Source of the DNA: a virus | Lineage: Duplodnaviria > Caudoviricetes | Reading direction: 5' to 3' (one strand) | Virus record (IMG/VR): IMGVR_UViG_3300011008_002687 | Location: 1-64,000 of that record | DNA: 64,000 nucleotides | In this document: piece by piece, positions 51,306 to 64,000 of the stretch | Layout of the letters: each line of letters opens with the position of its first letter | Position numbering within the stretch: the stretch's first letter is position 1 | Notes under the pieces: model-generated | What the model saw: only the letters and a program-made list of their open reading frames with translations | What the model was told of the DNA's origin: nothing | Databases searched by the model: none | Translations under genes and position numbers: made by a program

Positions 51306-51433
51306 ATTTTTCCCGTTCTTAAAGTCTGCAATATGCTGAATTTTCGCCATTTGTTCAGTATTTCAGACGGCAGAAAACGATATAAAACGGTGGTATTTAG
51401 TAACAAATTAGAAACACGGTTCCGACATCCGGA

Positions 51434-52318
51434 TCAGACCTTCTTCAGGTACAGACTGGACGTGAAACCAGTGTACTTGGTGCCGTTGTAGGTCACCTGA
51501 ATGTACAGCCACTTTCGGCCATTGGACTTGTCCACACTGTAGTAGCCGTAGTTCATGACCTTCAGACCAACAGGCAGGACAACCATGGCCTTGTTTCCGG
51601 TACCGGCACCGTGCCGCATATAAACGGCAGCAGTGGTGACGTACTGTCCGGCCAGCTTCTTGTCAAAGCCCGTGGCATAGCCGGTTGCCCTGACTTCCTT
51701 CACCTTGCCGCTGGTGCTTCCGGATCCTGAACCGGATCCGCTGCCGGAACCAGTTCCGGAACCGCTGCTGGATCCACCAGCCTTGGCACCATCATCAAGT
51801 GCCATGACGGTATGACCGGAACTGACAAGCACGTCACCACGCTTCAGGTAGTCAGAAGATCCGGTGTACTTCTTATCCGTCAGGATTTCATACTTGCCGG
51901 TCTTCTGATAGGCATTCTTCATGGTGCTGCACACCAGGGCATTTCCGGTATATTCCAGTTCCTTGACACCGGCCAGGATAGCCAGCACGGTCTGGAAAGA
52001 ACTGCAATCCGCTTCCGTGGCCACCTTGGACTTGATGTACTTGTCCACGTCATAGCCGTTTGCCTTCAGCTGATCATGCAGCGTGTTCCGCTGGGACTGG
52101 TCATAGCCTACCAGGTTGCTGTTGCACAGCTTTTCACATGCAGCGGCAGACTTTTCTGCCACAGCCGGATCCTTCGGTCTAATGACAACCAGCCAGTCCT
52201 TGTTGTACCAGTAGGAAATCTTCACTTCAAGGCCGGTCTGGTCACCAGCCTTGGCACGTCCGTCCCATCCGGCATTGCCGTTTTCAGAAATGGACGCATG
52301 TCCGATTCTCACAGCCAT
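51434..52318 (-). CDS. Endolysin (NlpC/P60-like Cys/His domain + Gly-Ser linker + SH3-like domain)
   Basis: GYDQSQR, DCSS, GDVL..GHTV; C-terminus homologous to endolysin A. Confidence 0.85.
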   Translation of the reverse strand: MAVRIGHASISENGNAGWDGRAKAGDQTGLEVKISYWYNKDWLVVIRPKDPAVAEKSAAACEKLCNSNLVGYDQSQRNTLHDQLKANGYDVDKYIKSKVATEADCSSFQTVLAILAGVKELEYTGNALVCSTMKNAYQKTGKYEILTDKKYTGSSDYLKRGDVLVSSGHTVMALDDGAKAGGSSSGSGTGSGSGSGSGSGSTSGKVKEVRATGYATGFDKKLAGQYVTTAAVYMRHGAGTGNKAMVVLPVGLKVMNYGYYSVDKSNGRKWLYIQVTYNGTKYTGFTSSLYLKKV

Positions 52319-52328
52319 TGTGTTCACC

Positions 52329-52634
52329 TCACTTCTTTTCAAAATAAGCCATCAGCTTGTCAAAGCCGAACATTGCAGCATAGGCCACCATGATGCCCAC
52401 AATGACGAATGCAGCAACCAGATACCATGTCAGCATCATGCCATTCATCTGCCAGTAGGCAATGAACACACCCACCGTCAGAACAATGGACAGGCACAGC
52501 ACAAAGATGTTGATCACCTTGGACGTACTAAGCCAGCTGAAGGATTTCTTCATCACTTCAGTGATGATGTTGACAAAAATGGTCAGAATTCCGACAATGA
52601 TCAGAACCTGACTGATGATAGTTGAATAGTCCAT
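52329..52634 (-). CDS. Holin
   Basis: Three TM segments, AMFGFDK; precedes endolysin. Confidence 0.78.
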   Translation of the reverse strand: MDYSTIISQVLIIVGILTIFVNIITEVMKKSFSWLSTSKVINIFVLCLSIVLTVGVFIAYWQMNGMMLTWYLVAAFVIVGIMVAYAAMFGFDKLMAYFEKK

Positions 52635-52652
52635 ATAGACGCACTTCCTTTC

Positions 52653-52964
52653 TTATCCCTTGGGTTCTTCTTCAGATGCAGAAAGATCAGGATCCGGCTG
52701 ATCACCGGATCCCGTCTTCCTGATTTTGAACACGTTTTCAGCGCCTGCCTTGATGAAGTACCCAAAGACACAGGTGATCAGCACGTTGGTGGACAGTTCC
52801 ATGAACGTCCCCAGATTGCTGTAATCACCGGAAACCATCATCACGATTGCAGAATAAAAGAAGGCTATGACGTACAGCACAAAGCACGTGGCCACAACCT
52901 TCTTTGAAAATTCCCACAACCATGACAGCTTGGTCTGTTTCTTCTTTGAATGCTTATCCTTCAT
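52653..52964 (-). CDS. Two-TM lysis-cassette protein
   Basis: EFSKKVV...GYFIKAGAEN. Confidence 0.6.
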   Translation of the reverse strand: MKDKHSKKKQTKLSWLWEFSKKVVATCFVLYVIAFFYSAIVMMVSGDYSNLGTFMELSTNVLITCVFGYFIKAGAENVFKIRKTGSGDQPDPDLSASEEEPKG

Positions 52965-53277
52965 CCACAGCGCCACTTGTTCCTTTCCCTTCCAAGAAGT
53001 TGATCCGTTTCCATGCAGATTTCAGGGATTCATCCAGACGGATGATCTTTTCAGTGTTTCCCTTCACGTCTTCTTTCAGGCTTTTCAGATCATTCTTGAT
53101 TTCAGCAGTGTCACGGCCTATGCCTTCCAGCTTGACAATGACGGTGGTCAGGTCACTGGCTTCCCGTTTGTCATCAGAAGACTTGTTCCTTTTCAGATTG
53201 GCAATACCTGTGTAGATGCTGAAGGCAAGGGAAACAGCGGAAATCAGCAGTGCAATTTCAATAGTCATGTTGTTCAC
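52954..53277 (-). CDS. TM plus coiled-coil lysis-cassette protein
   Basis: N-terminal TM; ESLKSAWKRI. Confidence 0.65.
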   Translation of the reverse strand: MNNMTIEIALLISAVSLAFSIYTGIANLKRNKSSDDKREASDLTTVIVKLEGIGRDTAEIKNDLKSLKEDVKGNTEKIIRLDESLKSAWKRINFLEGKGTSGAVDEG

Positions 53278-53358
53278 CTTTCCCTTCCGTCAGAAAGTGC
53301 CGTCAGACCTTATATAACGGTCATATACGGCACTTTCCAGCGTACTTGATATTTTCCC

Positions 53359-53493
53359 TTATCCTTCATCAGGAACCTTGTCAGGATAGCCAGCATCAAT
53401 GACAGCCTGTCTGACAGCAGGCTTCAGGGCAGCAGGCACCTGTTCAAAGGTCATCCGGTCATGAATGATCAGGTTGGCATACACTTTTACCAT
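53359..53493 (-). CDS. 44-aa CD1375-like phage protein (absent from ORF track)
   Basis: MVKVYANLI...TFEQVPAALKPAV; RBS. Confidence 0.7.
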   Translation of the reverse strand: MVKVYANLIIHDRMTFEQVPAALKPAVRQAVIDAGYPDKVPDEG

Positions 53494-53511
53494 GGTTCAC
53501 ACCTTCCTTTC

Positions 53512-53781
53512 TTACACCGTCAGAAGTCCGTAGACTTCCACCAGGCCTTCCTGGGTGTCCAGGATCTGACTTTCAAGATCAGCCTGCTTGTCAGACTGCA
53601 TCTTGATGTATTCATCCTTGTCATACTGCACCAGGTCATATTCATAACCGGTGAAGCCAGGTTCATCATCCGTGCCTTCGGTGTTGATTGCCGTCACGTT
53701 GCTGGCAATCCAAACACTGAATTCATCCACCACAAGGGGTTCAGGCTGCACGGTTGCCTGTACACGTCCATGATTGATCAT
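53512..53781 (-). CDS. Tail-fibre-associated hypothetical protein
   Basis: GYEYDLVQYDKDEYI plus coiled coil; start MINH. Confidence 0.7.
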   Translation of the reverse strand: MINHGRVQATVQPEPLVVDEFSVWIASNVTAINTEGTDDEPGFTGYEYDLVQYDKDEYIKMQSDKQADLESQILDTQEGLVEVYGLLTV

Positions 53782-54931
53782 TTTCCTTACTTCCTTTCTT
53801 GATGTGTTTGAAATAGTATGCATCAGCGTATGGCTGAAGCGGATCCAGATACTTTTCAGTCAGACGGTGACTGTCACAGTGGATCAGCCAGCCCTTATAG
53901 GAAGCAATGCTGCACCACTCTGAATAGTTCATTTCCTTGCCGGATTCCACCTTCTTCAGCAATCTGGTCATCTTGTCCTTCATCTGATTGCAAGTGGACT
54001 TTCTAAGAAGGGTGTATTCCTTGAAGATCCGGTATCCAACAAAATCCACACCACGCTGATACGTGGGGAAGATCTGATAATTCCCTTTGATCCTCAAATT
54101 CAGTTCAGACTTCAGGTAGTCACCCATAGCTGCCAGGATCCTGTGAAGTTCTTCCTTGGTACTGGCAAACACACAGATGTCATCCATGTATCTGTAGTAG
54201 TGCTTCACGTGAAGCACTTCCTTCATGAAGTGATCAAAGTCCGACAGGTAGAAGTTGCCGTCATATTGTGAAAAGTAGTTGCCTATGGGAATGCCAATAC
54301 CATCAATGAACTGTTCATCCTTTCGCTGAACAATGGCAACGGTCTTTCCCAGTGACCTGTAAAACGCTATGTTTTCATCCGTGGCCGGACAGGTGCTGAT
54401 ACTGTCAATGATTTCATCAATGACCTGAAGCAGTTCAGGATCCTTGTATTTCTTCCGGTACTTTGCCTTCAGGATGTCATGGTCAATGCTTGGATAGAAC
54501 TTCTGACAGTCAATCTTGCAGCAGAACCGCAATTCATCAGGCACGGTGTCCACAGCGTTCCGAAGTTTCTTGAAGGCTGCATGTATTCCTTTATTTGGTA
54601 TGGCTGAATAGGTATCATCCGTAAAGTGTGCCAACAGCTGTGGTTCAATCACCTGAATGATTGCCCATTGTGCTATCCTGTCAGGGAAGAACGGCAGCTT
54701 GTAGATTTCACGGACTTTGTTTCCCTCTTTCCGAAGGAACATTTCATAGCTGGAAGTGTGATAATCATGGTTGATCATCATTTCCTGAAGCAGCCCTAAG
54801 TAGTACCAGATATTCTTTTCAATTTCCCTTACTTCTTGATACCAGCCTTTTCCTTTCTTGGCATTCTTATATGCCCGGTACAGATTGTCCATTGAAACAA
54901 TCTTTTCAAATAAATAACCATAACGCTTCAC
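53741..54931 (-). CDS. DGR reverse transcriptase 2
   Basis: GIPIGNYFSQ, YYRYMDD; GTG start (MKRYG) after AAAGGA. Confidence 0.95.
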   Translation of the reverse strand: MKRYGYLFEKIVSMDNLYRAYKNAKKGKGWYQEVREIEKNIWYYLGLLQEMMINHDYHTSSYEMFLRKEGNKVREIYKLPFFPDRIAQWAIIQVIEPQLLAHFTDDTYSAIPNKGIHAAFKKLRNAVDTVPDELRFCCKIDCQKFYPSIDHDILKAKYRKKYKDPELLQVIDEIIDSISTCPATDENIAFYRSLGKTVAIVQRKDEQFIDGIGIPIGNYFSQYDGNFYLSDFDHFMKEVLHVKHYYRYMDDICVFASTKEELHRILAAMGDYLKSELNLRIKGNYQIFPTYQRGVDFVGYRIFKEYTLLRKSTCNQMKDKMTRLLKKVESGKEMNYSEWCSIASYKGWLIHCDSHRLTEKYLDPLQPYADAYYFKHIKKGSKENDQSWTCTGNRAA

Positions 54932-55142
54932 AGTGTTTCCTTTGTATGCACTAAGCCGAACCTTCGACACGCACCGGAACCGGTGCATCCTACCAGTACA
55001 GCCTGTTTAGAATTTTGTCAGTGTTTTGCCAAGCGGCACGGTGACACGGTTGCAGTTCAAACTGGATGCAGAACACGCTGCATCACTTATTTATTGAAAC
55101 ACCCACCCGGTGTTGACCGGATGGGTGCTTTTTAGTGCATGT

Positions 55143-55273
55143 ACTGACTGCCTGGAGATATTCCGATTACGATTAGAAGACGAATTATTCAGATTCCGAT
55201 TGAAGATCCTGGCTTTCAAGGCATTATTCCATTTACCACTGGATTTAGCTACATGCCAACTGGTGTTACCATT
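55143..55273 (-). repeat. DGR2 template repeat (TR2)
   Basis: 131-bp match to 55423-55553; all 23 mismatches at TR adenines. Confidence 0.96.
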
Positions 55274-55382
55274 TAGACTTTTTTGCTTTTTTCCAGTAGC
55301 CATGTGTGGTCTTCCACCTATCTTGCAAATAATCCGACTGTATAACCACGTCACCTATAGTTCTATGTTTCAGGCTATTGCC

Positions 55383-57218
55383 TTACGCAGCGTCAAGTTC
55401 CGCCTTCCTGCTGGGAATGAACACCGACCGCCCGGAGACATTCCGACCACGATAAGAAGACGAATAATGCAGATTCCGATAGAAGATCCCGGCCGCCAAG
55501 GCATTAGTCCACATACCACCGGATATAGCCACAAGCCAACCGGCGTTACCATTCCAGGTGTAATCACCAACAGGCAGGGCACTGGTGCCGGAGAATTCCA
55601 CACCAACAAAGATCCAGTCATAGTCTTCACTATAACCAAAAGCGCTGATGTAGTTGCCGCTGGTGTACGGAATACGGATGCCGGTGTCTTCATAGGGTGT
55701 AGCACCGGTGTCATCAGTAAAGCCGTGATCAGCCACATAAACAGTGCCGAACATGCCAGCCGCAAAACCGGAAGGATTCTGGATGTTGAAGCCGTCTTCC
55801 CACTTCCAGATGTTGCCCAACAGGTTTTCCTCACCACGATAGGACACAGCCTTCTGATGGTTGGCATTCTCTGCTTCACCGGAAGCGTTGCCAAGGTTCA
55901 CCGTGGCACCGGTCAGTTCAGCCATGTTGGTGCTGCCGTCATCGGTCTTGTCCACAATGCCCTTGCCAATGACGGTCTGACTGTTGAAGCTGCCGTACTC
56001 AATCAGCATCAGCAGCTGGGTACCGGCCAGCATGACAGCGTTCTGCTGTTCCCAGCCGTTGCCCATGTTGTGTGCCAGCTTTCTGGTGTTCGCCCTGGTC
56101 AGATTCTGTGTCAGGCCGGAAATGGGCTTGGCATTGGCAATGGAAGCCAGCTTGTCACCCGTGCTGACCGTGAAGTCAGCAACCTGATCATCATCCAAGA
56201 TGTAGGCAGAAGCAGACACGTCATACAGGCAGCCTTCAAAGGCAGACTTGTAGATGAAGTCATCAACGGTTTTCCCCTCATTCATAGTGAACTGGGGATG
56301 GATCTTGAAGCCCTTCTTCGGCACGTCAGACACGTAGTATCTGATCTTCTTGGTCTTCCAGCCCTGGCTGACACCGTTGGCATCAAAGACTTCTTCAATG
56401 GACAGCGGCACAACCTTGTAGTAGAACTTCGGCTGTTCCACCATGACCTGAACCATGGTGCCGATAGGATAGGTGACACCGCCTTTTTCCACGGCCTGAA
56501 GCAGTGCACCACCGGTGGTGTATGCAGTGTCACCCTGGTATGCCAGGACAACACCGTCAGCCGTCATGATGCAGCGCTTTCTGCCGCCGAAGGCATTGAT
56601 GCTGTCAAAACCAGCACCACCGGACTTGTTGACTGCACCGGCCAGACGGGTGAACTTCTTGTTGGCAAAGTCCACTTCAACACCATAGATGTCATTGTCA
56701 GAATATCCGACAAAACCCTTCAGGTCAGCAATTTCATCTTCCAGGGCATCAATGTCTTCAACCGTTGCATAGGCACCGGAATAGACGCTGATGTCCACAT
56801 CATCAGAATTGCCAACCGTGGTGTAGATCTGAATATAGGCAGAAGACACGGTGACACCTTTGTATGCAGGCATGTAGCAGAAACCGGAAGTTTCCACACA
56901 CACGGCATACAGGATTTCACCAATGTCAGGATCCGTGGCATACAGGCCAAGGGAACGGAGATAGTACCCGGCAGCCAGTGCTTCATTGGTGAAGGCCGTT
57001 TCAACCTTCACAGAAGTGTGATTGGTGATGGTCACCCTGGTCACGCTGTTGGTCTGCTTGATCTGTTCCAGTGCAGTCAGACTTTCCAGCTGACTTTCTG
57101 CATAGGTCTTGGAAGACGTGCAGACCTTAGTGAAGACCAGGCTTGCCTGACCAGCAATGATCTTGGCAACAAGTGCCTGACCTCTTGTGGTCAAATAAAG
57201 TTTGCTAAATTCAGCCAT
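55383..57218 (-). CDS. DGR2 target: tail fibre with C-terminal CLec-like domain
   Basis: N-terminal tail-collar LTTRG...LGLYATDPDIGEILY; YRGEENLLGNIWKW; C-terminal VR. Confidence 0.92.
   Translation of the reverse strand: MAEFSKLYLTTRGQALVAKIIAGQASLVFTKVCTSSKTYAESQLESLTALEQIKQTNSVTRVTITNHTSVKVETAFTNEALAAGYYLRSLGLYATDPDIGEILYAVCVETSGFCYMPAYKGVTVSSAYIQIYTTVGNSDDVDISVYSGAYATVEDIDALEDEIADLKGFVGYSDNDIYGVEVDFANKKFTRLAGAVNKSGGAGFDSINAFGGRKRCIMTADGVVLAYQGDTAYTTGGALLQAVEKGGVTYPIGTMVQVMVEQPKFYYKVVPLSIEEVFDANGVSQGWKTKKIRYYVSDVPKKGFKIHPQFTMNEGKTVDDFIYKSAFEGCLYDVSASAYILDDDQVADFTVSTGDKLASIANAKPISGLTQNLTRANTRKLAHNMGNGWEQQNAVMLAGTQLLMLIEYGSFNSQTVIGKGIVDKTDDGSTNMAELTGATVNLGNASGEAENANHQKAVSYRGEENLLGNIWKWEDGFNIQNPSGFAAGMFGTVYVADHGFTDDTGATPYEDTGIRIPYTSGNYISAFGYSEDYDWIFVGVEFSGTSALPVGDYTWNGNAGWLVAISGGMWTNALAAGIFYRNLHYSSSYRGRNVSGRSVFIPSRKAELDAA
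55423..55553 (-). repeat. DGR2 variable repeat (VR2)
   Basis: Adenine-specific divergence from TR2. Confidence 0.96.
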
Positions 57219-57273
57219 AACATTTCTTCCTTTCTTGAAAACTATGATAGTGTATTATTTCAATGACCATCAT

Positions 57274-57343
57274 CAGGGACACCGTATGCCTTCCCATAAC
57301 CACCTGCAAGCAGGGACACCGTATGGTCTGACATAACCACCTG
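57274..57343 (-). repeat. Two 33-bp self-complementary direct repeats
   Basis: CAGGTGGTTATG-N6-CATACGGTGTCCCTG twice, period 37. Confidence 0.85.
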
Positions 57344-57362
57344 GATCCGGATCACGGAAACC

Positions 57363-57992
57363 TTAGTGATTATCAGATGTGATCTGATACATTTCTGTGC
57401 TGCTGATGACACCGGCAGACACACCGCCACTTGGCCGGAAGGTTTCACACCAGTCCTGTGTCAAGGTGATCTGTGCATGGGTGGTCAGCCTTGCAGCAAA
57501 GGTATTGTTGCTGATTATGGTGCACATGATCTGATTGATGGAATACACCACGATGTTGCACGGCAGCACTTCATTGAACAGTTCATTCAGTTCATCCACC
57601 TGGCCAAGGTTTTCCAGGTATGTTGTGATGGACAGCAGATATTCTTCAGTGAAACTGCCGCTGACAATGTAGTGATTGGCACCACACAGCACGTTCAGTT
57701 TCTGAAGAAATGTCTTCATGGTGTACGGCAGCAGATTCACCCAGTTCACCTGCACCCTGGATCTTCTGGATTCCAGGTTGTCATGTTCATCTGGGATGAT
57801 ACCCATGATCTTTTCATATCTGCTGATGCCATATTCATCTGCCGTGCTGATGAAATGATTATACAGGCAGTGATCCACGGCATCCCATATCAGGATGAAT
57901 TCCGGATTTTCTGCTTCCAGGGCAGCAACCTGTTCTTTGTATATCTGCAAATATGGGGGAAGGTATGAAACCAGATCAACCTGTCTAACCAT
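57363..57992 (-). CDS. XkdU/DUF2313-like baseplate protein
   Basis: YLPPYL...GISRYEK...LESRR. Confidence 0.82.
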   Translation of the reverse strand: MVRQVDLVSYLPPYLQIYKEQVAALEAENPEFILIWDAVDHCLYNHFISTADEYGISRYEKIMGIIPDEHDNLESRRSRVQVNWVNLLPYTMKTFLQKLNVLCGANHYIVSGSFTEEYLLSITTYLENLGQVDELNELFNEVLPCNIVVYSINQIMCTIISNNTFAARLTTHAQITLTQDWCETFRPSGGVSAGVISSTEMYQITSDNH

Positions 57993-59208
57993 TGATCACA
58001 CCCCCAAACGTAGGAATCTGATACTTGGTCAAGGTGATGTTGTTTTCAGATCCGTTCAGCAGGACGCTTTCAATATCCAGCACACCTTCCACGGCCAGCA
58101 CCCTGGATTCAATCTGGGAAACACGGACAACCAGATAGTCACTGTCTTCCCAGTCTTCACGCAAAGACTGAAGGTATTCATCAACAGTGCCTTCAATAGC
58201 ATCCTTGCAAGCTGACCAGCTGTAGCCGGTATTAAACTGAAGACCTGTCAGCTTGACACTGATGGTCACCGGTGAAGCAGATCTGACATTCACAACATGG
58301 CCGATTGGTGACAGGCCATAACCTTCACCAGTCATGGCATCCGGATCCAACGTGTTCTTCACAGAACTGATCAGTGCAGGACTGGCTTCACCATAGTCAT
58401 CACTGTCAATGATAGTGATCAGCACTGTGCCGCCAACAGTCAGCTTTCTGGATGCAGCTGCCGTATAAACAGCAGTCAGCCATGTAGCCACTTCATCAGA
58501 CAGGCCGCTGATCACCGATTCATACCAGGTATCCACATCTTCAGAAGGTACCAGGTCAGCAGGCTTGATGTCACCATTCCAGACACGTTCAACTTTCACG
58601 GCACCAACACCGTTGATGCTTTTGACCTTATCAATATAGTCAGCACGGTTGCCGCCGAAGGCAAAGGTACCAAAAGAATTGAAATACCGTGTCCGTAGGA
58701 CTTCAGTGTCTTCTTCATCTTCACCAGGTATCAGCACTTCATCCAGTGTGGCCGTTTCCAGTCCCTGAATGTATTCCATTGGAATCAGGTTGCCAAAATG
58801 CTGATTGCCGGTGATTCCAGCCGTTTCACACTGCACCTGATAGGTTCCGGCAGCGGCATTGATTGCAGACAACACCACGTAGTTCAGACTGTCCAGGTTG
58901 AAACGCTGACCGATCAGTGCAGCGGATCCAACACTGGCCGGTGTGAATGTGGCCTTCAGCACCGCCTTGGTTGCCGGTTCAGGTTCTATGCCACGGTCTT
59001 TGCACAGAAGGATCAGGAAGTCACGTGATGCAGTGTCACCATAGCCGTCCTTGATCATCTGATCCAGTTCAATGTACAGCGTCTTCAGTTCAATGGCCGT
59101 AGGTGAATGTGTATCATAGATGACGGATCCTTCACGCTTGTCCAGGGAAGACGGCACCCGTGCCAGCATTCTGTCCCTGATTTCTTCATAGGTCACATCT
59201 TCATACAT
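57985..59208 (-). CDS. Baseplate J-like protein
   Basis: DKREGS...GEDEEDTE...GGNRADY. Confidence 0.9.
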   Translation of the reverse strand: MYEDVTYEEIRDRMLARVPSSLDKREGSVIYDTHSPTAIELKTLYIELDQMIKDGYGDTASRDFLILLCKDRGIEPEPATKAVLKATFTPASVGSAALIGQRFNLDSLNYVVLSAINAAAGTYQVQCETAGITGNQHFGNLIPMEYIQGLETATLDEVLIPGEDEEDTEVLRTRYFNSFGTFAFGGNRADYIDKVKSINGVGAVKVERVWNGDIKPADLVPSEDVDTWYESVISGLSDEVATWLTAVYTAAASRKLTVGGTVLITIIDSDDYGEASPALISSVKNTLDPDAMTGEGYGLSPIGHVVNVRSASPVTISVKLTGLQFNTGYSWSACKDAIEGTVDEYLQSLREDWEDSDYLVVRVSQIESRVLAVEGVLDIESVLLNGSENNITLTKYQIPTFGGVING

Positions 59209-59612
59209 CAGAAATTCACCGTCCTTTCTTCTTTTATGTCACCAAAGACGGTGTGAACAGTGAATTTCACGGCCACAACACCCTTCCTGGACAGATCAAA
59301 TTCAAAGTCCGTCACGGACAGGATCCGTTCATCCCATGTCAACGCTTCAGTGATTCTTCTTTGCAGTTCAGGGCACACCCATGAAACAGGTTCCCCAAAC
59401 AGATCCATCAGTTCAACACCGTAGTTCCATGAATACATTGGATACTTGTACCGCTCTGTGTTCAGTATCTTGAAGACAGCCTGTTTCATGGCATCAAGGC
59501 CGTCAACATATCCCCTGGTGGTGTTTCCTTCAAGATTCATCTTGTATGTTTTGCTTGGCTGTTCAGTGATTTCAAAATCACTGGCTAAAAATCCGGAATT
59601 GGAAGGTATCAT
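59208..59612 (-). CDS. XkdS/DUF2634-like protein
   Basis: LNTERYKY..YSWNYGVE. Confidence 0.85.
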   Translation of the reverse strand: MIPSNSGFLASDFEITEQPSKTYKMNLEGNTTRGYVDGLDAMKQAVFKILNTERYKYPMYSWNYGVELMDLFGEPVSWVCPELQRRITEALTWDERILSVTDFEFDLSRKGVVAVKFTVHTVFGDIKEERTVNF

Positions 59613-60010
59613 GATTTCTTACCTATCCTGTCTATGATCACGAATTTCTGACCACCAAACTTCCGTATCAAGACCACTTCATCACCGACAGCCAAGCCAT
59701 TGTGCACGGTGATCTGTTTCTTTCCGGAAATTCCGTGGTTATGGGATGCAAAGGACGCTTCCCCTGATCCACCTGATCTGTATCCGGTTGCCCAGTCAAC
59801 AGTGACGTTTGTTGTGAAGTCCATCACGTTTCTGGTCAGCACTAACTGCTTTTCACCAAGGATGAACTGCTGTTCAACATTGATCTGAAGGGGTGATACT
59901 GAAATCACCTTGCCAAACAGCACGTCCGTTGGTTTTTCAGCCATCAGTGCATCAAGTGCAGCCTTCTTCAGTGTTTTCAATAATTCCGTTGCATCAGGCA
60001 ATGAATTCAC
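59609..60010 (-). CDS. DUF2577/XkdR-like spike protein
   Basis: GKVISVSPL, SHNH, GDEV. Confidence 0.8.
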   Translation of the reverse strand: MNSLPDATELLKTLKKAALDALMAEKPTDVLFGKVISVSPLQINVEQQFILGEKQLVLTRNVMDFTTNVTVDWATGYRSGGSGEASFASHNHGISGKKQITVHNGLAVGDEVVLIRKFGGQKFVIIDRIGKKS

Positions 60011-60974
60011 CCCCTCTTAAAGTCAAGTCCATCCAATGTTCTGATTCATTGAAGGTATGGACGCATTTTTCCACCAGCATGAAGTTCTTCACGTTGATGT
60101 CACCAAGGCCAAGGTTGATGACCACCATGGATCCGGCACGGACACGGCAGTCACCGAAGGCCTTTTTTACCACCAGTTTTCTGGTCTTCTGATTGTACAG
60201 CTTCAGCAGGGCATCAGCCTTGGCCTGACCGTTTTCACCCTTCTGAAGGGTGTCAAAGTATTGCAGGATGCCCCATTTGTTGATGTTTTCACCGGACTGT
60301 GCCACATAGACTTCACGGATACCGGTTTCATCATTGTCATAGGTCAGCTTTATCCTGTTGAATGTCGCATCATCAATGCTGCTGGTATAGTCAAAGTTCT
60401 GGCCTGTTTCTTCATCAATCATCAGGTATTGGCCATTGCTGCCCACACGCATCTGATCAAGGCTTTTCAGCGTTAGACTGCCGAAGTCATCATAAAGGAT
60501 GAACATGTTGCCTGTGTTGGTCAGTGTCAGATCCAGTGCATTGCCGATCATGTCAAATAGGGAAGTGTTTTCTTCCACCCTTGATTCAATGACATAACCT
60601 GTATCAGCAATGGATCCAAGGTTCAGCGTATAGTCATTTGCCAGCATCCGGATGAATTCTGATGCCTTCTTGCCTTCATAGGTCTTTGTGTCCTTGTTCT
60701 GAAGATACCGCATCTGGTCATAGGCAGTCACGCTTATGATCTGATCACGGTTCCTGGATTTCTTGAACACCCAGCCATAGAAGATTTTCTGGCCATCAAC
60801 TGTCATCCGGACTGGTGATCCTTCCTGAAAACTGATGATTTCATCCTTCAGGACTTTGAATTCCAGCTTTCCAGGTGTACCAAACCGCTGTGTTGTCCAC
60901 TTTATACCGTCTTCCACAGCAGGCTGGTACACCGTATTTCCATTTGCAATCAAAAGTTCAACCATGTTCACCAT
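59994..60974 (-). CDS. XkdQ-like baseplate hub
   Basis: PGKLEF, AYDQMRYL, WGILQY. Confidence 0.85.
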   Translation of the reverse strand: MVNMVELLIANGNTVYQPAVEDGIKWTTQRFGTPGKLEFKVLKDEIISFQEGSPVRMTVDGQKIFYGWVFKKSRNRDQIISVTAYDQMRYLQNKDTKTYEGKKASEFIRMLANDYTLNLGSIADTGYVIESRVEENTSLFDMIGNALDLTLTNTGNMFILYDDFGSLTLKSLDQMRVGSNGQYLMIDEETGQNFDYTSSIDDATFNRIKLTYDNDETGIREVYVAQSGENINKWGILQYFDTLQKGENGQAKADALLKLYNQKTRKLVVKKAFGDCRVRAGSMVVINLGLGDINVKNFMLVEKCVHTFNESEHWMDLTLRGGEFIA

Positions 60975-60979
60975 CCTTT

Positions 60980-61666
60980 CTATGCTGGGGGAATGACCAG
61001 CACATCACCGGCATAGATCAGATTGGGACTTCTGCCCTTGAACACGTTTGGGTTTGCATCATAGATCTTCGGATACAGGGCACCATTGCCGTAGAACTTC
61101 CGTGCTATTGCCCACAGGCAATCACCCCTGACCACCGTGTATGTGGTCTGTTGTGGTGGTGCAGGGGATGATTCCACAGGTCTTGGTGCAGGTTCCGGTG
61201 ATGCAACAACCTTCTTCTGCTGAATGGTCATTGCCACTGTTTTGGTTCCGTAGTCCTTCCACTGTTTCAGGCTGATCTTGACCTTCACATCAAAGCCAAT
61301 GTCTGCACCTTCCTGGATCTGATAGTCTTCCAGGGACACCTTGATGTTGGTGTTGTACAGCGCCCTGCCATTAGGAAAAGCCCTGGTGATGATGAACTGG
61401 AATGGTTCCTGTGTGACCTTCAGTTCTTCAAAGTAGTCCAGGAAGTAGGACGCATTCTGAAAGCCGCTGTTGTACACGGCAAAAGGATACCGCACGTTTG
61501 GCAGCAGACATTCAAATTCAATGTCCGTCAGTCCAGGCTTCTTCAGGATGTTGATTTCACCTTCATTGATCAGTGTGACCTTCTTGTTTTTCCCATTGAT
61601 CTTTATCTTGCAATCCTTGGGGGTGACAGGAAGAAGGCCCTTTTTCAGGTAAAACATATATGCCAT
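60980..61666 (-). CDS. LysM tail-tube initiator (XkdP-like)
   Basis: YTVVRGDCLWAIA...PNLIY. Confidence 0.87.
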   Translation of the reverse strand: MAYMFYLKKGLLPVTPKDCKIKINGKNKKVTLINEGEINILKKPGLTDIEFECLLPNVRYPFAVYNSGFQNASYFLDYFEELKVTQEPFQFIITRAFPNGRALYNTNIKVSLEDYQIQEGADIGFDVKVKISLKQWKDYGTKTVAMTIQQKKVVASPEPAPRPVESSPAPPQQTTYTVVRGDCLWAIARKFYGNGALYPKIYDANPNVFKGRSPNLIYAGDVLVIPPA

Positions 61667-64000
61667 TAGTCATGCACCCCCTCTGTTAGTTCATCCACCG
61701 CTTCATTCACCGCATCAGTCAGACCGCTTACAACACCATCAAGATCCATGTCATTGTTGATATTGTTCTGCATACCGGACATGTCAACGTGAATTTCTGC
61801 TGTGGTATATCTGTTTATAGCTTCTTGTTCAGCAATGTCACGTAAATACTTCAGTTCTTCCTTGGTAACGTCCAAGGATCCTGCAATAGCTGCCGTATTT
61901 CCGGCTATGTCACCAACACCGGATCCAATGTCACCAACACCGTTGGCCAGCTGTGTGGCAAGATCACCACGGTCAGACAGACCTTCAACGTCAGTGGAAA
62001 ACATGTCAGTGAATCCATCAAAGAAGCCGGACACGCTTTCAGAAACACCGTCACCCCATTCAGCACCAGCGGCAAAGGCATCTGAAGCCCATCCTTCCTG
62101 GAATGTGTCAAAGGTGTCCATGCCTGCATCAAAGGCAGCACCGGTGTCCATGTAATTTTCATTCAGCTGATAGGTTGACATGCCTTCCTGGAAGGCAGAC
62201 AGCAGGCTTTTATAGTCTTCTTTTCCTTCATAGGCAGCAGCACTTTTGGCAGCATATTCAGAAGCAGCGTTTGCAATCCCTGAATAGTCAAATTCCACGA
62301 ATGGCAGCTTGTTCAGGGCAGCTGCAATTCCGGCAACCACCGTCAGAACATCCGATAACAGTCCATACCACCATCCGGTGACGTTTGCAATGACATTGTG
62401 AAATGCTATGCCGATGTTATCACACACGGCACCAAGGGCATTCCAGATGCCAAGTGCAATGTTTGCTATGGACAGTCCCAGGTTGGAAAATGCTATGCCA
62501 ATGTTGGTCACCACAGCCTTGATCCAGTTCCAGACACCAATGGCAATATTGGCAATGGACAGGCCAAGGTTCTTGAAGAATGCGCCCACCGTTGCAATAC
62601 CACCACAGATGACACCAAAAGCAGAATTGGCAGCGCCTGTAGTGTTGGCAATCCACTGGCAGACGGCAATCAATGCCGCAATCAGTGCAATGACGGCCAG
62701 TACAATCCAGGTGATAGGACATGCAGCCAATGCAGCATTCAAGCCATACTGTGCAGCCGTTTCAGCAAAAGTGGCACCAGTAGCCATCATCTGTGCAGCA
62801 GCCTTGGCAGCTTCGGAAGCGGCATGAATGCCGTTTGCCACAGCCACAATGCCGGAAATAACGGCATATGCAGACAGGGCAGCCACAATTCCAAGCACTA
62901 TAGGTTCAATCCAAGACCAGTTATCCTGGATGACCTGTGCAAACTCTATGGCACCTTCCAGCATGTTCCCCAGGATGCCAAGCACCATGGCCAGCGCATC
63001 TGTAAAGCCTGCAACCAGTTCAGTGATCTGTGGCCAGTTATCGTTTATGATCTGGACAAAACGGACAATGTACGGATACAGCTGCTGTCCAATCATTTCT
63101 TTCATATCACCCCATGCATTGGTCATCTGGATAATCTGACCTTCAGGGGTGTTGCTCATTGTTTCATACAGATTGCCCCAGGATTCATCAATGACCTGGC
63201 TGATCACCAAGGCCGCCTGCATTTCATCAGACAGGGATGCATAATCATCACCAAGCACTGCCGTCAGCTGATCCTGTGTGGCCGTGCCTTCAATAATGGC
63301 CTTCTGGGCTTCCGTAAATTCAAAACCCTTCTTGGTCATGGCATCATAGGATCCTGTCATGATCTTGCCAAGGTTGGTGGCATAATCGGTCATCTGGGTG
63401 GTATCCAGTGCACCACCGCCAGACATACCCATGGCATAGTTGGACAGGGTGTCCATCATGGTTGTGATTGCATCAGTATCTGTGAAGTAGGTGGCAAATT
63501 CAGCACCAGCGGCAATCATGGCTTCATCACCATAAATACCCTTGGACTGAATTTCACTGGCCTTGTTTGCAACGGCATCAAACTGACCAAGCAGATAGTC
63601 AGTTCTCATTTCCGGTGTCACGTCAACCGTGGTGCCGTCAATGGTGCTGACCAGATTGCCAAATTCATCAAGTGCCAGTGTGTCATCAATGCCCACAATG
63701 AATTCAGGCACTTCAGACCAGTCAGCCATGTTTGCCAGAACCGTCATCAGCTGATTTTCTGCATTCAGCTGTGTATCATACAGTTCAGTGGCTTCCTGGA
63801 TGAAACCAATGGTCTTCTTGATGCCAGCAACACCAAGGAAGCCAGCAAAGGCCGTCCGGATCATGTTGTTCAGACCGGAAGCCGCCTGTGTGCCCTGGTT
63901 GATTGCATTGTTGAATGCACCCTGTTCACTGACGTTATCCCTGATGTAGCCTTCGGTTCCCCTGATGGTTCCGGACAGCTGAAGGTATGCAGCATTGATC
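61666..64000 (-). CDS. Tape measure protein, 5'-truncated by the window edge
   Basis: Ala/Gly-rich amphipathic repeats; position upstream of LysM gene. Confidence 0.85.
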   Translation of the reverse strand, partial: INAAYLQLSGTIRGTEGYIRDNVSEQGAFNNAINQGTQAASGLNNMIRTAFAGFLGVAGIKKTIGFIQEATELYDTQLNAENQLMTVLANMADWSEVPEFIVGIDDTLALDEFGNLVSTIDGTTVDVTPEMRTDYLLGQFDAVANKASEIQSKGIYGDEAMIAAGAEFATYFTDTDAITTMMDTLSNYAMGMSGGGALDTTQMTDYATNLGKIMTGSYDAMTKKGFEFTEAQKAIIEGTATQDQLTAVLGDDYASLSDEMQAALVISQVIDESWGNLYETMSNTPEGQIIQMTNAWGDMKEMIGQQLYPYIVRFVQIINDNWPQITELVAGFTDALAMVLGILGNMLEGAIEFAQVIQDNWSWIEPIVLGIVAALSAYAVISGIVAVANGIHAASEAAKAAAQMMATGATFAETAAQYGLNAALAACPITWIVLAVIALIAALIAVCQWIANTTGAANSAFGVICGGIATVGAFFKNLGLSIANIAIGVWNWIKAVVTNIGIAFSNLGLSIANIALGIWNALGAVCDNIGIAFHNVIANVTGWWYGLLSDVLTVVAGIAAALNKLPFVEFDYSGIANAASEYAAKSAAAYEGKEDYKSLLSAFQEGMSTYQLNENYMDTGAAFDAGMDTFDTFQEGWASDAFAAGAEWGDGVSESVSGFFDGFTDMFSTDVEGLSDRGDLATQLANGVGDIGSGVGDIAGNTAAIAGSLDVTKEELKYLRDIAEQEAINRYTTAEIHVDMSGMQNNINNDMDLDGVVSGLTDAVNEAVDELTEGVHD

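What the first reader, a model, noticed from the sequence alone, without database searches (positions are those of the whole stretch)
51434..64000. Near-total avoidance of the trinucleotide GAG/CTC in phage B
A manual scan found only about 20 GAG or CTC in 12.6 kb versus roughly 390 expected at uniform frequency, while phage A is full of them. The avoidance covers all frames and both strands: Glu is almost always GAA, and even Shine-Dalgarno sites read AAAGGAAG instead of GGAGG (near 52650, 53505, 53795, 57230). This points to DNA-level selection, such as a defence or modification system with a very short GAG-containing target, not codon preference (inference).
Basis: seen in the sequence. Interest (0 to 1): 0.78.

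Follow-up and report, generated by a model that had tools for sequence, protein, structure and literature searches.

The report
Gut prophage purged of GAG/CTC
A 46-kb temperate phage of the gut bacterium Faecalibacterium, here inserted inside another phage, has lost about 94% of its GAG/CTC trinucleotides on both strands through ongoing natural selection, which implies that something reading only about three base pairs attacks its DNA.

Summary
Window 51434-64000 holds 20 GAG/CTC, against about 390 expected at uniform frequency or 354 after dinucleotide correction. The depleted block is a complete temperate myovirus ("B", record 51417-97208). It is bounded by an 18-bp att repeat and sits inside another phage. 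Over all of B there are 84 sites against 1410 expected (O/E 0.06).

Codon usage does not explain it. Off-frame GAG and CTC are 10-30 times rarer than in synonymous shuffles. No gene has a GGAGG ribosome-binding site (0 of 49 genes, against 32 of 64 in phage A).

Mutation bias does not explain it either. In two independent pairs of about 97%-identical phages, substitutions that create or remove GAG/CTC are 3-4.5 times rarer than the null, while control words fit.

The trait is shared by a prophage in a Faecalibacterium prausnitzii chromosome and by 67 of 79 gut-phage relatives that share B's primase. I also confirmed it in the unrelated Pseudomonas phage 73 (O/E 0.02). This scan had already noted the same purge in at least four other phage groups.

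The best reading is an extreme form of restriction-site avoidance against a DNA-targeting agent with a roughly 3-bp target. That agent was not identified. CGA/TCG, CGCG, CTAG and TCGA are purged too.

The parts
51399..51416 (.). attL core AGTAACAAATTAGAAACA, the left boundary of phage B. The identical copy (attR) is at record 97209-97226, beyond the window.
   Evidence: It is the only 18-bp exact repeat between the two junctions. The same core bounds the related prophage in the F. prausnitzii chromosome.
51417..64000 (.). Part of the GAG/CTC-purged block that lies in the window. The block runs on to record position 97208.
   Evidence: 20 sites against 354 (Markov) or 393 (uniform) expected. 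Whole block 84 against 1410.
52644..52651 (-). GAG-free ribosome-binding site AAAGGAAG upstream of ORF 52329-52634.
53503..53510 (-). GAG-free ribosome-binding site AAAGGAAG.
53790..53797 (-). It lies inside the reverse-transcriptase ORF, and I did not confirm that it is a working RBS.
57226..57233 (-). GAG-free ribosome-binding site AAAGGAAG of the tail-fibre gene.
53741..54988 (-). Reverse transcriptase of a diversity-generating retroelement (a phage B gene).
   Evidence: phrog_1423, E 1e-118
55383..57218 (-). Tail fibre / tail protein of phage B.
   Evidence: phrog_5302, E 1e-148
57363..61666 (-). Baseplate and tail genes and a lysin-like protein of phage B.
   Evidence: phrog_521, phrog_6, phrog_120, phrog_400, phrog_380
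61666..64000 (-). 3' part of the tape-measure gene of phage B. The gene runs to record position 65169.
   Evidence: phrog_1068

Best explanation
Phage B is a temperate Faecalibacterium myovirus whose lineage is under continuing purifying selection, acting on the DNA itself, against the words GAG/CTC. CGA/TCG, CGCG, CTAG, TCGA, TTAA, GCGC and GGNCC are also purged. Most likely this is anti-defence site avoidance: a host-encoded agent that cuts, nicks or marks double-stranded DNA recognises GAG/CTC with only about 3-4 bp of specificity. Each copy then lowers the chance of a productive infection, so synonymous changes remove them. The phage pays for this with GAA-only glutamate codons and with re-built ribosome-binding sites (GAAAGGAAGG in place of GGAGG). 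Shown here: the depletion, its independence of reading frame and strand, its age and spread, and the ongoing selection. Inferred: that the selecting agent is a host defence, and that it needs no more than the trinucleotide.
For: (1) Off-frame and both-strand depletion remains after a synonymous shuffle. From the genetic code, every GAG/CTC can be removed synonymously, so near-complete removal is feasible. (2) 0 of 49 genes have GGAGG upstream, against 32 of 64 in phage A of the same record; the consensus is GAAAGGAAGG. (3) Ongoing selection. Between B and a 96-97%-identical phage, 15 GAG/CTC-discordant SNPs are seen against 67 expected, while controls fit (GAC/GTC 109 vs 109; AGG/CCT 121 vs 104). 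The result is replicated in the F. prausnitzii prophage against its IMG/VR relative (26 vs 82, 18 vs 58, 33 vs 87). (4) The same genomes lack classical Type II palindromes (CGCG 0, CTAG 0, TCGA 2). Sub-lineages differ in others (GGCC O/E 1.14 in B, 0.01 in the F. prausnitzii prophage), the usual signature of R-M pressure. (5) Host flanks in F. prausnitzii have normal GAG/CTC (18-41 per kb) and the prophage has 0-11 per kb. (6) The trait is not intrinsic to the replication genes. Paenibacillus phage LincolnB has a homologous polymerase, primase, SNF2 helicase and VRR-NUC but O/E 0.87. Pseudomonas phage 73, which shares only a 30%-identical stretch of the polymerase, has O/E 0.02. Recurrence in another phylum points to an external agent. 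(7) Natural 3-nt nickases exist: Nt.CviQII R^AG and Nt.CviPII ^CCD (PMC3017599).
Against: No nuclease, methyltransferase or other system with GAG specificity was identified in any host. No fully specified 3-bp restriction site is known in bacteria (my knowledge). The host would have to protect about 10^5 GAG/CTC sites of its own, or the agent must act only on entering or replicating phage DNA. Phage A, resident in the same record, is rich in GAG (O/E 1.27). So are its relatives, with or without its Mom-like module. A survey found avoidance weaker in temperate phages and largely limited to orthodox Type II sites (PMC6286503). Depletion tracks the replication module more closely than the structural module, which an intrinsic cause would also predict.
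Confidence: 0.5

Rival explanations
1. Half-site purge. The agents are ordinary modular adenine-methylase-based R-M enzymes (Type I, IIB, IIG) whose specificity domains read 3-bp half-sites. A [GAG] domain and a [CGA] domain, recombined with many partner domains across host strains, make removal of the shared half-site the only general escape.
For: Specificity domains that read exactly GAG occur in EcoAI, EcoEI, StyLTIII/StySB, StySJ and PpiI. Domains reading CGA or its complement occur in StySBLI, StySKI, BcgI and EcoR124I (tables in PMC3874165). These are the two trinucleotides purged in B. The model explains both strands, recurrence across phyla, and why other purged phages add other 3-mers (phage 73: CAC/GTG 0.30).
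Against: About 70-80% of newly arising GAG/CTC are removed within about 3% divergence. A bipartite site makes a new GAG harmful only when a matching partner lies at the right spacing, roughly 1 in 64 to 1 in 256 per specificity. The survey in PMC6286503 saw no avoidance of full Type I or IIG sites. All eight one-base contexts of GAG are depleted.
Confidence: 0.2
2. Self-immunity by site absence. The phage lineage encodes its own frequent-cutting nuclease or nickase that destroys host and rival-phage DNA at GAG, and it protects itself by having no sites.
For: Depletion co-occurs with one replication module: 67 of 79 primase relatives have O/E 0.07-0.34. B encodes a NUMOD4-HNH endonuclease, a VRR-NUC protein and an HD protein with weak Cas3-HD similarity. 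Close HNH homologues were found only in purged phages. Phage HNH nickases with 3-7 bp sites are described in the abstract of PMC3592412.
Against: The HNH gene is absent from the purged F. prausnitzii prophage. The HD and VRR-NUC genes are also present in the weakly depleted clade (O/E about 0.6). Phage 73 is purged but matched none of these proteins. No gene is common to all purged phages.
Confidence: 0.08
3. Mutation bias: context-specific hypermutation (polymerase error signature, cytosine deamination or 5mC decay) erodes GAG/CTC and TCG/CGA without selection.
For: The replacement words are one transition away and are enriched (GAA/TTC 1.8, AAG/CTT 1.4, TGA/TCA 1.9, CA/TG 1.48). The phage carries a C5-methyltransferase.
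Against: At mutational equilibrium, GAG-creating and GAG-destroying substitutions should be at least as common as the null. They are 3-4.5 times rarer, while control words fit. Functional GGAGG sites have been replaced. The TC/GA dinucleotide is not depleted. Phages with 83-85%-identical methyltransferases have O/E 0.97 and 0.79.
Confidence: 0.04
4. CRISPR PAM purge: GAG/CTC is the protospacer-adjacent motif of the hosts' CRISPR-Cas system.
For: PAMs are 2-3 nt and act in both orientations (my knowledge).
Against: Per-site selection from PAM loss should be weak, yet most new sites are removed quickly. The same word is purged in phages of unrelated hosts. A literature search found no GAG PAM for Faecalibacterium.
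Confidence: 0.04
5. RNA or translation-level cause: codon preference, avoidance of internal Shine-Dalgarno-like sequences, or a GAG-specific RNase.
For: 72 of the 84 surviving sites are GAG on the mRNA-sense strand, and 47 of them are Glu codons. This shows that translation shapes which sites survive.
Against: Sense-strand CTC, which is antisense GAG, is the most depleted class (14 in all). All off-frame classes are depleted. The real ribosome-binding sites avoid GAG as well.
Confidence: 0.03
6. B avoids GAG so as not to be modified by the Mom-like adenine-hypermodification enzyme of the outer phage A, whose operon lies next to B's insertion site.
For: The operon is adjacent (earlier scan note e1-5839110). 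From my knowledge, phage Mu Mom targets S-A-S-N-Y, which includes GAG.
Against: A purged B-like prophage sits directly in the F. prausnitzii chromosome, and that genome gave no match to A's enzyme. CAG/CTG, also a Mom-type context, is enriched in B.
Confidence: 0.03

Closest known systems
Restriction-site avoidance in phage genomes (survey: Rusinov et al. 2018, PMC6286503)
   Same: Target words are eliminated from the phage's own DNA on both strands and in all frames. B also lacks classical 4-bp palindromes (CGCG, CTAG, TCGA), and sub-lineages differ in others (GGCC).
   Different: The purged word is a non-palindromic trinucleotide, shorter than any fully specified bacterial restriction site I know of. 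The phage is temperate, whereas the survey found avoidance weaker in temperate phages. The cost extends to ribosome-binding sites.
Frequent-cutting nicking systems of chlorella viruses: Nt.CviQII (R^AG) with M.CviQII, and Nt.CviPII (^CCD) (PMC3017599)
   Same: These are natural enzymes that read three nucleotides, and R^AG includes GAG. They show that a 3-nt DNA reader is biochemically possible.
   Different: They are virus-encoded, eukaryotic-algal systems. From my knowledge, they protect the virus's own DNA by methylation, not by site loss. No homologue was sought or found here.
[GAG] and [CGA] target-recognition domains of Type I, IIB and IIG R-M enzymes (Loenen et al. 2014, PMC3874165)
   Same: The half-sites read by single domains (GAG in EcoAI, EcoEI, StyLTIII, PpiI; CGA in StySBLI, BcgI) match the two purged trinucleotides.
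   Different: These enzymes need a second half-site at a fixed spacing. The strength of selection on new GAGs argues that the trinucleotide alone is harmful.
Pseudomonas phage 73 (Septimatrevirus, NC_007806)
   Same: It has 28 GAG/CTC in 43 kb (O/E 0.02), computed here.
   Different: It has a different host phylum and no integrase is annotated in the record. Its extra purged words differ (GATC 0, CAC/GTG 0.30), and TCG/CGA is enriched (1.9). Only a stretch of the DNA polymerase is detectably homologous (30% identity).

Membership tests
Restriction-site avoidance (anti-restriction by site loss) | The word is under-represented against composition-corrected and codon-corrected expectation. | tested here: met
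   O/E 0.06, z -33. Synonymous shuffle z -12 to -15 in each off-frame class.
Restriction-site avoidance (anti-restriction by site loss) | The depletion is maintained by selection, not by mutation bias. | tested here: met
   GAG/CTC-discordant SNPs 15 vs 67 and 26 vs 82 in two independent pairs, with control words fitting. SD sites are re-tooled.
Restriction-site avoidance (anti-restriction by site loss) | A host R-M or other nuclease with that specificity exists. | not testable with these tools
   No methylome or enzyme data were available. Literature searches for Faecalibacterium motifs found nothing relevant.
Restriction-site avoidance (anti-restriction by site loss) | Known restriction palindromes are avoided in the same genome. 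| tested here: met
   CGCG 0, CTAG 0, TCGA 2, GGNCC 1, TTAA O/E 0.13, GCGC O/E 0.24.
Type I/IIB half-site ([GAG] TRD) avoidance | The purged words equal known single-TRD half-sites. | tested here: met
   GAG and CGA half-sites are listed in PMC3874165.
Type I/IIB half-site ([GAG] TRD) avoidance | Harm depends on a partner half-site at a fixed spacing. | tested here: inconclusive
   About 70-80% of new GAGs are removed regardless of context and all one-base contexts are depleted. This argues against the feature, but partner words were not tested directly.
Codon-usage bias | The depletion is confined to in-frame codons of the sense strand. | tested here: not met
   Off-frame, antisense and intergenic sites are all depleted.
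Mutational footprint (deaminase- or CpG-decay-like) | Substitution flux at the motif is at or above neutral expectation. | tested here: not met
   The flux is 3-4.5 times below the null.
CRISPR PAM depletion | The host CRISPR system uses the depleted word as its PAM. | not tested
   No spacer-protospacer analysis was done. The literature search gave nothing.

The most novel reading that the evidence does not exclude
A widespread bacterial DNA-targeting agent (nuclease, nickase or modification-plus-reader system) recognises no more than the trinucleotide GAG/CTC. It is strong enough to have driven convergent, near-total purging of that word in unrelated phages of Clostridia and Proteobacteria.
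Probability: 0.35. Interest if true: 0.85.

Novelty: new variant of a known kind. Interest (0 to 1): 0.72.

Why it matters
Site avoidance is a textbook anti-restriction strategy, but for 4-8 bp sites. A temperate gut phage here has rewritten glutamate codons, leucine codons and even its ribosome-binding sites to remove one trinucleotide. The purge is under measurable ongoing selection, is shared by a large clade of human-gut phages, and recurs in a cultured Pseudomonas phage. Together these point to a selective agent that current defence catalogues do not describe. Phage 73 and its laboratory host make the question directly testable. The result also bears on phage and vector design for Faecalibacterium, a bacterium I understand to be hard to transform: GAG-free, CGA-free DNA may enter it better.

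Tried and rejected
1. Codon preference: rejected by the synonymous shuffle.

2. Mutation bias: rejected by the SNP flux test in two pairs.

3. B's C5-methyltransferase as cause or marker. Relatives with 83-85%-identical enzymes have O/E 0.97 and 0.79.

4. B's NUMOD4-HNH endonuclease. Close homologues occur only in purged phages, but the gene is absent from the purged F. prausnitzii prophage.

5. An 'SLT' ORF (record 86748-87653). Its presence tracks the depth of depletion among primase relatives. It is a membrane-anchored lytic transglycosylase, so I treat it as a clade marker.

6. The replication module as an intrinsic cause. Cultured phages with homologous polymerase and primase have O/E 0.63-1.02.

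7. 'Two answers to one nuclease'. The idea was that phage A's Mom-like modification protects A while site loss protects B. A-like phages without the module are not depleted.

8. B always riding inside A-like phages. In F. prausnitzii the relative sits in the chromosome, and A's enzyme was not found there with this query.

9. DarT1-type guanine ADP-ribosylation with a G-N-G preference. Only a loose preference is reported (PMC11543638), and GTG is not depleted in B.

10. Chi-like AGCGG enrichment: not above composition.

11. Literature searches for a published description of GAG/CTC avoidance or a GAG-specific system found none.

12. No match to phage B in the GenBank phage collection by megablast. 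No tRNA was found at the att sites.
Full report
**What is there.** The window is the first 64 kb of a single 111,269-bp virus record. A count per 2 kb shows 50-100 GAG+CTC up to 51.4 kb and 1-8 afterwards. A first-order Markov model expects 161 and 193 (z -16, -17). The depleted block does not end with the window. It runs to about 97.2 kb, after which normal density returns. An 18-bp direct repeat, AGTAACAAATTAGAAACA, lies at 51399-51416 and 97209-97226, exactly at the two edges.

The block encodes a complete temperate myovirus. Its genes are an integrase, HTH regulators, a C5-cytosine methyltransferase, an SNF2 helicase, Sak4, a DNA polymerase, a D5-type primase-helicase, terminase, portal, capsid, sheath, tape measure, baseplate, tail fibre and a DGR reverse transcriptase. 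The DNA on both sides (1-51.4 kb and 97.2-111 kb) shares one separate k-mer signature: CGCG, GGCC, ACGT, CTAG, GAAGC, CCTGA, CCAGA, CACGG and CCAGC are avoided. It carries a second full structural module. 'Phage B' is therefore a prophage integrated inside 'phage A'.

**Is it more than composition or codon usage?** Over the whole of B, GAG/CTC occurs 84 times against 1410 expected (O/E 0.06, z -33). CGA/TCG is at O/E 0.23 against the dinucleotide-corrected (Markov) expectation, or 0.13 against base composition. I called genes by ORF, cross-checked against PHROG hits. I then shuffled synonymous codons among positions, keeping every protein and the overall codon usage. Results for the sense strand were:

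- GAG in frame 2: 9 observed against 108 expected.
- GAG in frame 3: 10 against 144.
- CTC in frame 2: 3 against 110.
- CTC in frame 3: 7 against 151.

Each class has z between -12 and -15. In frame, Glu is GAA 904 and GAG 47, and Leu CTC is used 4 times. Two kilobases of intergenic DNA hold 4 sites. From the genetic code, every GAG or CTC in any frame can be removed by a synonymous change, so near-complete removal is feasible without changing proteins. The depletion is similar in late genes (1.7 per kb) and in early and lysogeny genes (2.0 per kb). All eight one-base contexts are depleted (0.00-0.11), most deeply with C or G before and C or T after the word. Of the 84 survivors, 72 are GAG on the mRNA-sense strand, and 47 of those are Glu codons. 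Translation therefore influences which sites survive, but it does not explain why the rest are gone.

**Ribosome-binding sites.** Upstream of 49 B genes there is no GGAGG, one GGAG, and six windows with any GAG. The consensus is GAAAGGAAGG(T). In phage A of the same record, 32 of 64 genes have GGAGG. Functional sites have therefore been rebuilt around the missing word.

**Age and spread.** A syntenic prophage lies in the complete chromosome of Faecalibacterium prausnitzii strain 2 at 634831-679986. It is bounded by the same 18-bp core. It has 0-11 GAG/CTC per kb, against 18-41 per kb in host flanks of 58-63% GC. Its proteins are 45-86% identical to B's, and its 3-mer and 4-mer profile is almost the same (GAG 0.16, CGA 0.23, CGCG 0.03, CTAG 0.05, TCGA 0.12). 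Among relatives of B's primase in IMG/VR, 67 of 79 loci (GC 38-48%) have O/E 0.07-0.34, and the other 12 have 0.48-0.70 (most near 0.6). Nearly all also lack CGCG and CTAG. Relatives of the portal at 72-75% identity can be undepleted. Two contigs carry a depleted head module inside an otherwise GAG-rich genome, which looks like recent recombination. More distant primase relatives in other Clostridia genomes (GC 29-36%) are depleted in three cases of six.

**Selection or mutation?** B and an IMG/VR contig that is 96-97% identical differ at 639 aligned positions. I placed the same base changes at random on positions with the same base, codon position and synonymy. That null creates GAG/CTC 63.5 ± 6.7 times and destroys it 3.4 times. 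The observed discordant sites are 8 + 7 = 15. TCG/CGA gives 34 against 87. Control words fit the null (GAC/GTC 109 vs 109; AGG/CCT 121 vs 104). The F. prausnitzii prophage compared with its own 97%-identical relative gives the same picture: 26 vs 82, 18 vs 58 and 33 vs 87 on three overlapping loci, again with controls fitting. A mutational equilibrium would show at least the neutral flux of gains and an equal flux of losses. The flux is 3-4.5 times too low, so new GAG/CTC are being removed by selection now. Because roughly 70-80% of new sites are removed, the trinucleotide itself is likely to be harmful without needing a particular wider context. That last step is inference.

**What selects?** I looked for a cause inside the phage.

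- The C5-methyltransferase is the best-conserved protein (85% identity). However, phages with 83-85%-identical enzymes have O/E 0.97 and 0.79, and another, only distantly related phage carrying an 82%-identical enzyme is purged (0.05).
- The NUMOD4-HNH endonuclease has close homologues only in purged phages, but it is missing from the purged F. prausnitzii prophage.
- An ORF whose presence tracks the depth of depletion proved to be a membrane-anchored lytic transglycosylase, so I treat it as a clade marker.
- The whole replication module co-occurs with depletion. Even so, Paenibacillus phage LincolnB has a homologous polymerase (40-41%), primase (46%), SNF2 (46%) and VRR-NUC and has O/E 0.87. 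Enterococcus and Staphylococcus phages with the same polymerase family have 0.63-1.02.

Notes from earlier agents of this scan reported the same purge in at least four other phage groups. I checked one of them. Pseudomonas phage 73 has 28 GAG/CTC in 42,999 bp (O/E 0.02) and no GATC, CAC/GTG is at 0.30, and TCG/CGA is enriched. It shares only a 30%-identical stretch of the polymerase with B. The same word is therefore purged convergently in phages of different phyla. This favours an external, widespread agent over a lineage-specific gene.

**Context of ordinary restriction avoidance.** B has no CGCG, no CTAG, two TCGA and one GGNCC, with TTAA at 0.13 and GCGC at 0.24. GATC (2.4) and CCGG (2.0) are enriched. 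GGCC is normal in B (1.14) but absent from the F. prausnitzii prophage (0.01). This mix of shared and strain-specific missing palindromes is what R-M pressure produces. It makes the same kind of pressure the most economical reading for GAG/CTC. The published survey found avoidance mainly for orthodox Type II sites and weaker in temperate phages (PMC6286503), so B is an outlier on both counts.

**Candidate agents.**

- A true 3-nt reader. Nt.CviQII (R^AG) and Nt.CviPII (^CCD) show such enzymes exist (PMC3017599).
- Modular enzymes whose single specificity domains read GAG (EcoAI, EcoEI, StyLTIII, StySJ, PpiI) or CGA (StySBLI, StySKI, BcgI, EcoR124I) (PMC3874165). The match to the two purged trinucleotides is striking. 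However, the need for a partner half-site fits poorly with the strength of selection on new sites.
- A phage-encoded nuclease with self-immunity by site absence. No gene is shared by all purged phages.
- Other ideas. CRISPR PAM loss, RNA-level causes, and avoidance of phage A's Mom-like enzyme are each contradicted or unsupported.

**Limits.**

- Gene calls are ORF-based.
- The SNP null ignores context-dependent mutation rates beyond base change and codon position.
- The three loci of the second pair overlap.
- Hosts of the main 41%-GC clade are unknown.
- Host names come from record titles.
- The selecting agent was not identified. Everything about it is inference.

Noticed in passing
window 51399-51416 and record 97209-97226; L164-L166 (F. 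prausnitzii chromosome 634831-634848 and 679969-679986): Phage B is integrated inside phage A at an 18-bp core identical to the chromosomal attachment core in F. prausnitzii. On the non-phage side the two sites also share CGGTGGTATTT next to the core, and a terminator-like hairpin on the other side. Phage A therefore carries a look-alike of the bacterial attB.
   Followed up: partly
L010 and L081 (IMG/VR contigs 3300045988_048681 and _148952), about 8-17 kb of each locus: A 9-kb head module related to B's (74-76% aa identity) has 5-16 GAG/CTC per kb, inside genomes with 40-60 per kb. It looks like a purged module recently recombined into an unpurged phage.
   Followed up: partly
record 51417-97208 versus L164-L166: GGCC is at O/E 1.14 in B but 0.01 in the related F. 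prausnitzii prophage. GGNCC is absent from both. This points to strain-specific Type II pressure on top of the shared purge.
   Followed up: no
window 1-51398 and record 97227-111269 (phage A): Phage A has its own set of nearly absent words: CGCG, CTAG, ACGT, GAAGC/GCTTC, CCTGA/TCAGG, CCAGA/TCTGG, CACGG/CCGTG, CCAGC/GCTGG and GACCC/GGGTC. B shares only CGCG, CTAG and GACCC. GAG is enriched in A (1.27).
   Followed up: no
window 55110-57266 (+), and record 62398-64077 (+), 66185-67726 (+), 89118-90947 (+): There are long open frames antisense to real genes of B (up to 718 aa). They are probably a by-product of the strong TA depletion (TpA O/E 0.42), which removes antisense stop codons. A length-based gene caller would be misled.
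   Followed up: no
record 85196-85999 (L002:6196-6999, minus strand): An HD-domain protein in the replication module has weak similarity to the Cas3 HD nuclease domain (PADLOC E 4e-7; TIGR01596 E 1e-5, below cut-off).
   Followed up: no
record 89160-89927 (L002:10160-10927, minus strand): A DUF7666 plus pentapeptide-repeat protein lies between the C5-methyltransferase and the SNF2 helicase. From my knowledge, pentapeptide-repeat proteins can mimic DNA, so it may be an anti-restriction factor.
   Followed up: no
record 51417-97208: GATC (419 sites, O/E 2.4) and CCGG (O/E 2.0) are strongly enriched in B and in the F. prausnitzii prophage, and TGAA/TTCA reaches O/E 3.1. Part of this may be the replacement products of purged words.
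   Followed up: no
L333 (Pseudomonas phage 73, NC_007806): Of its 28 surviving GAG/CTC, 20 are GGAG and 24 are GAGT, so most survivors may share one GGAGT-type motif, possibly ribosome-binding sites. I did not check this.
   Followed up: no
L208 (IMG/VR 3300028914_000136, GC 42%): This phage has an unrelated structural module (portal 27% identical) but an 82%-identical methyltransferase and a 68%-identical HNH. It is as purged as B (GAG 0.05, TCG 0.09, CGCG 0, CTAG 0.01). Purged phages appear to share a gene pool.
   Followed up: partly
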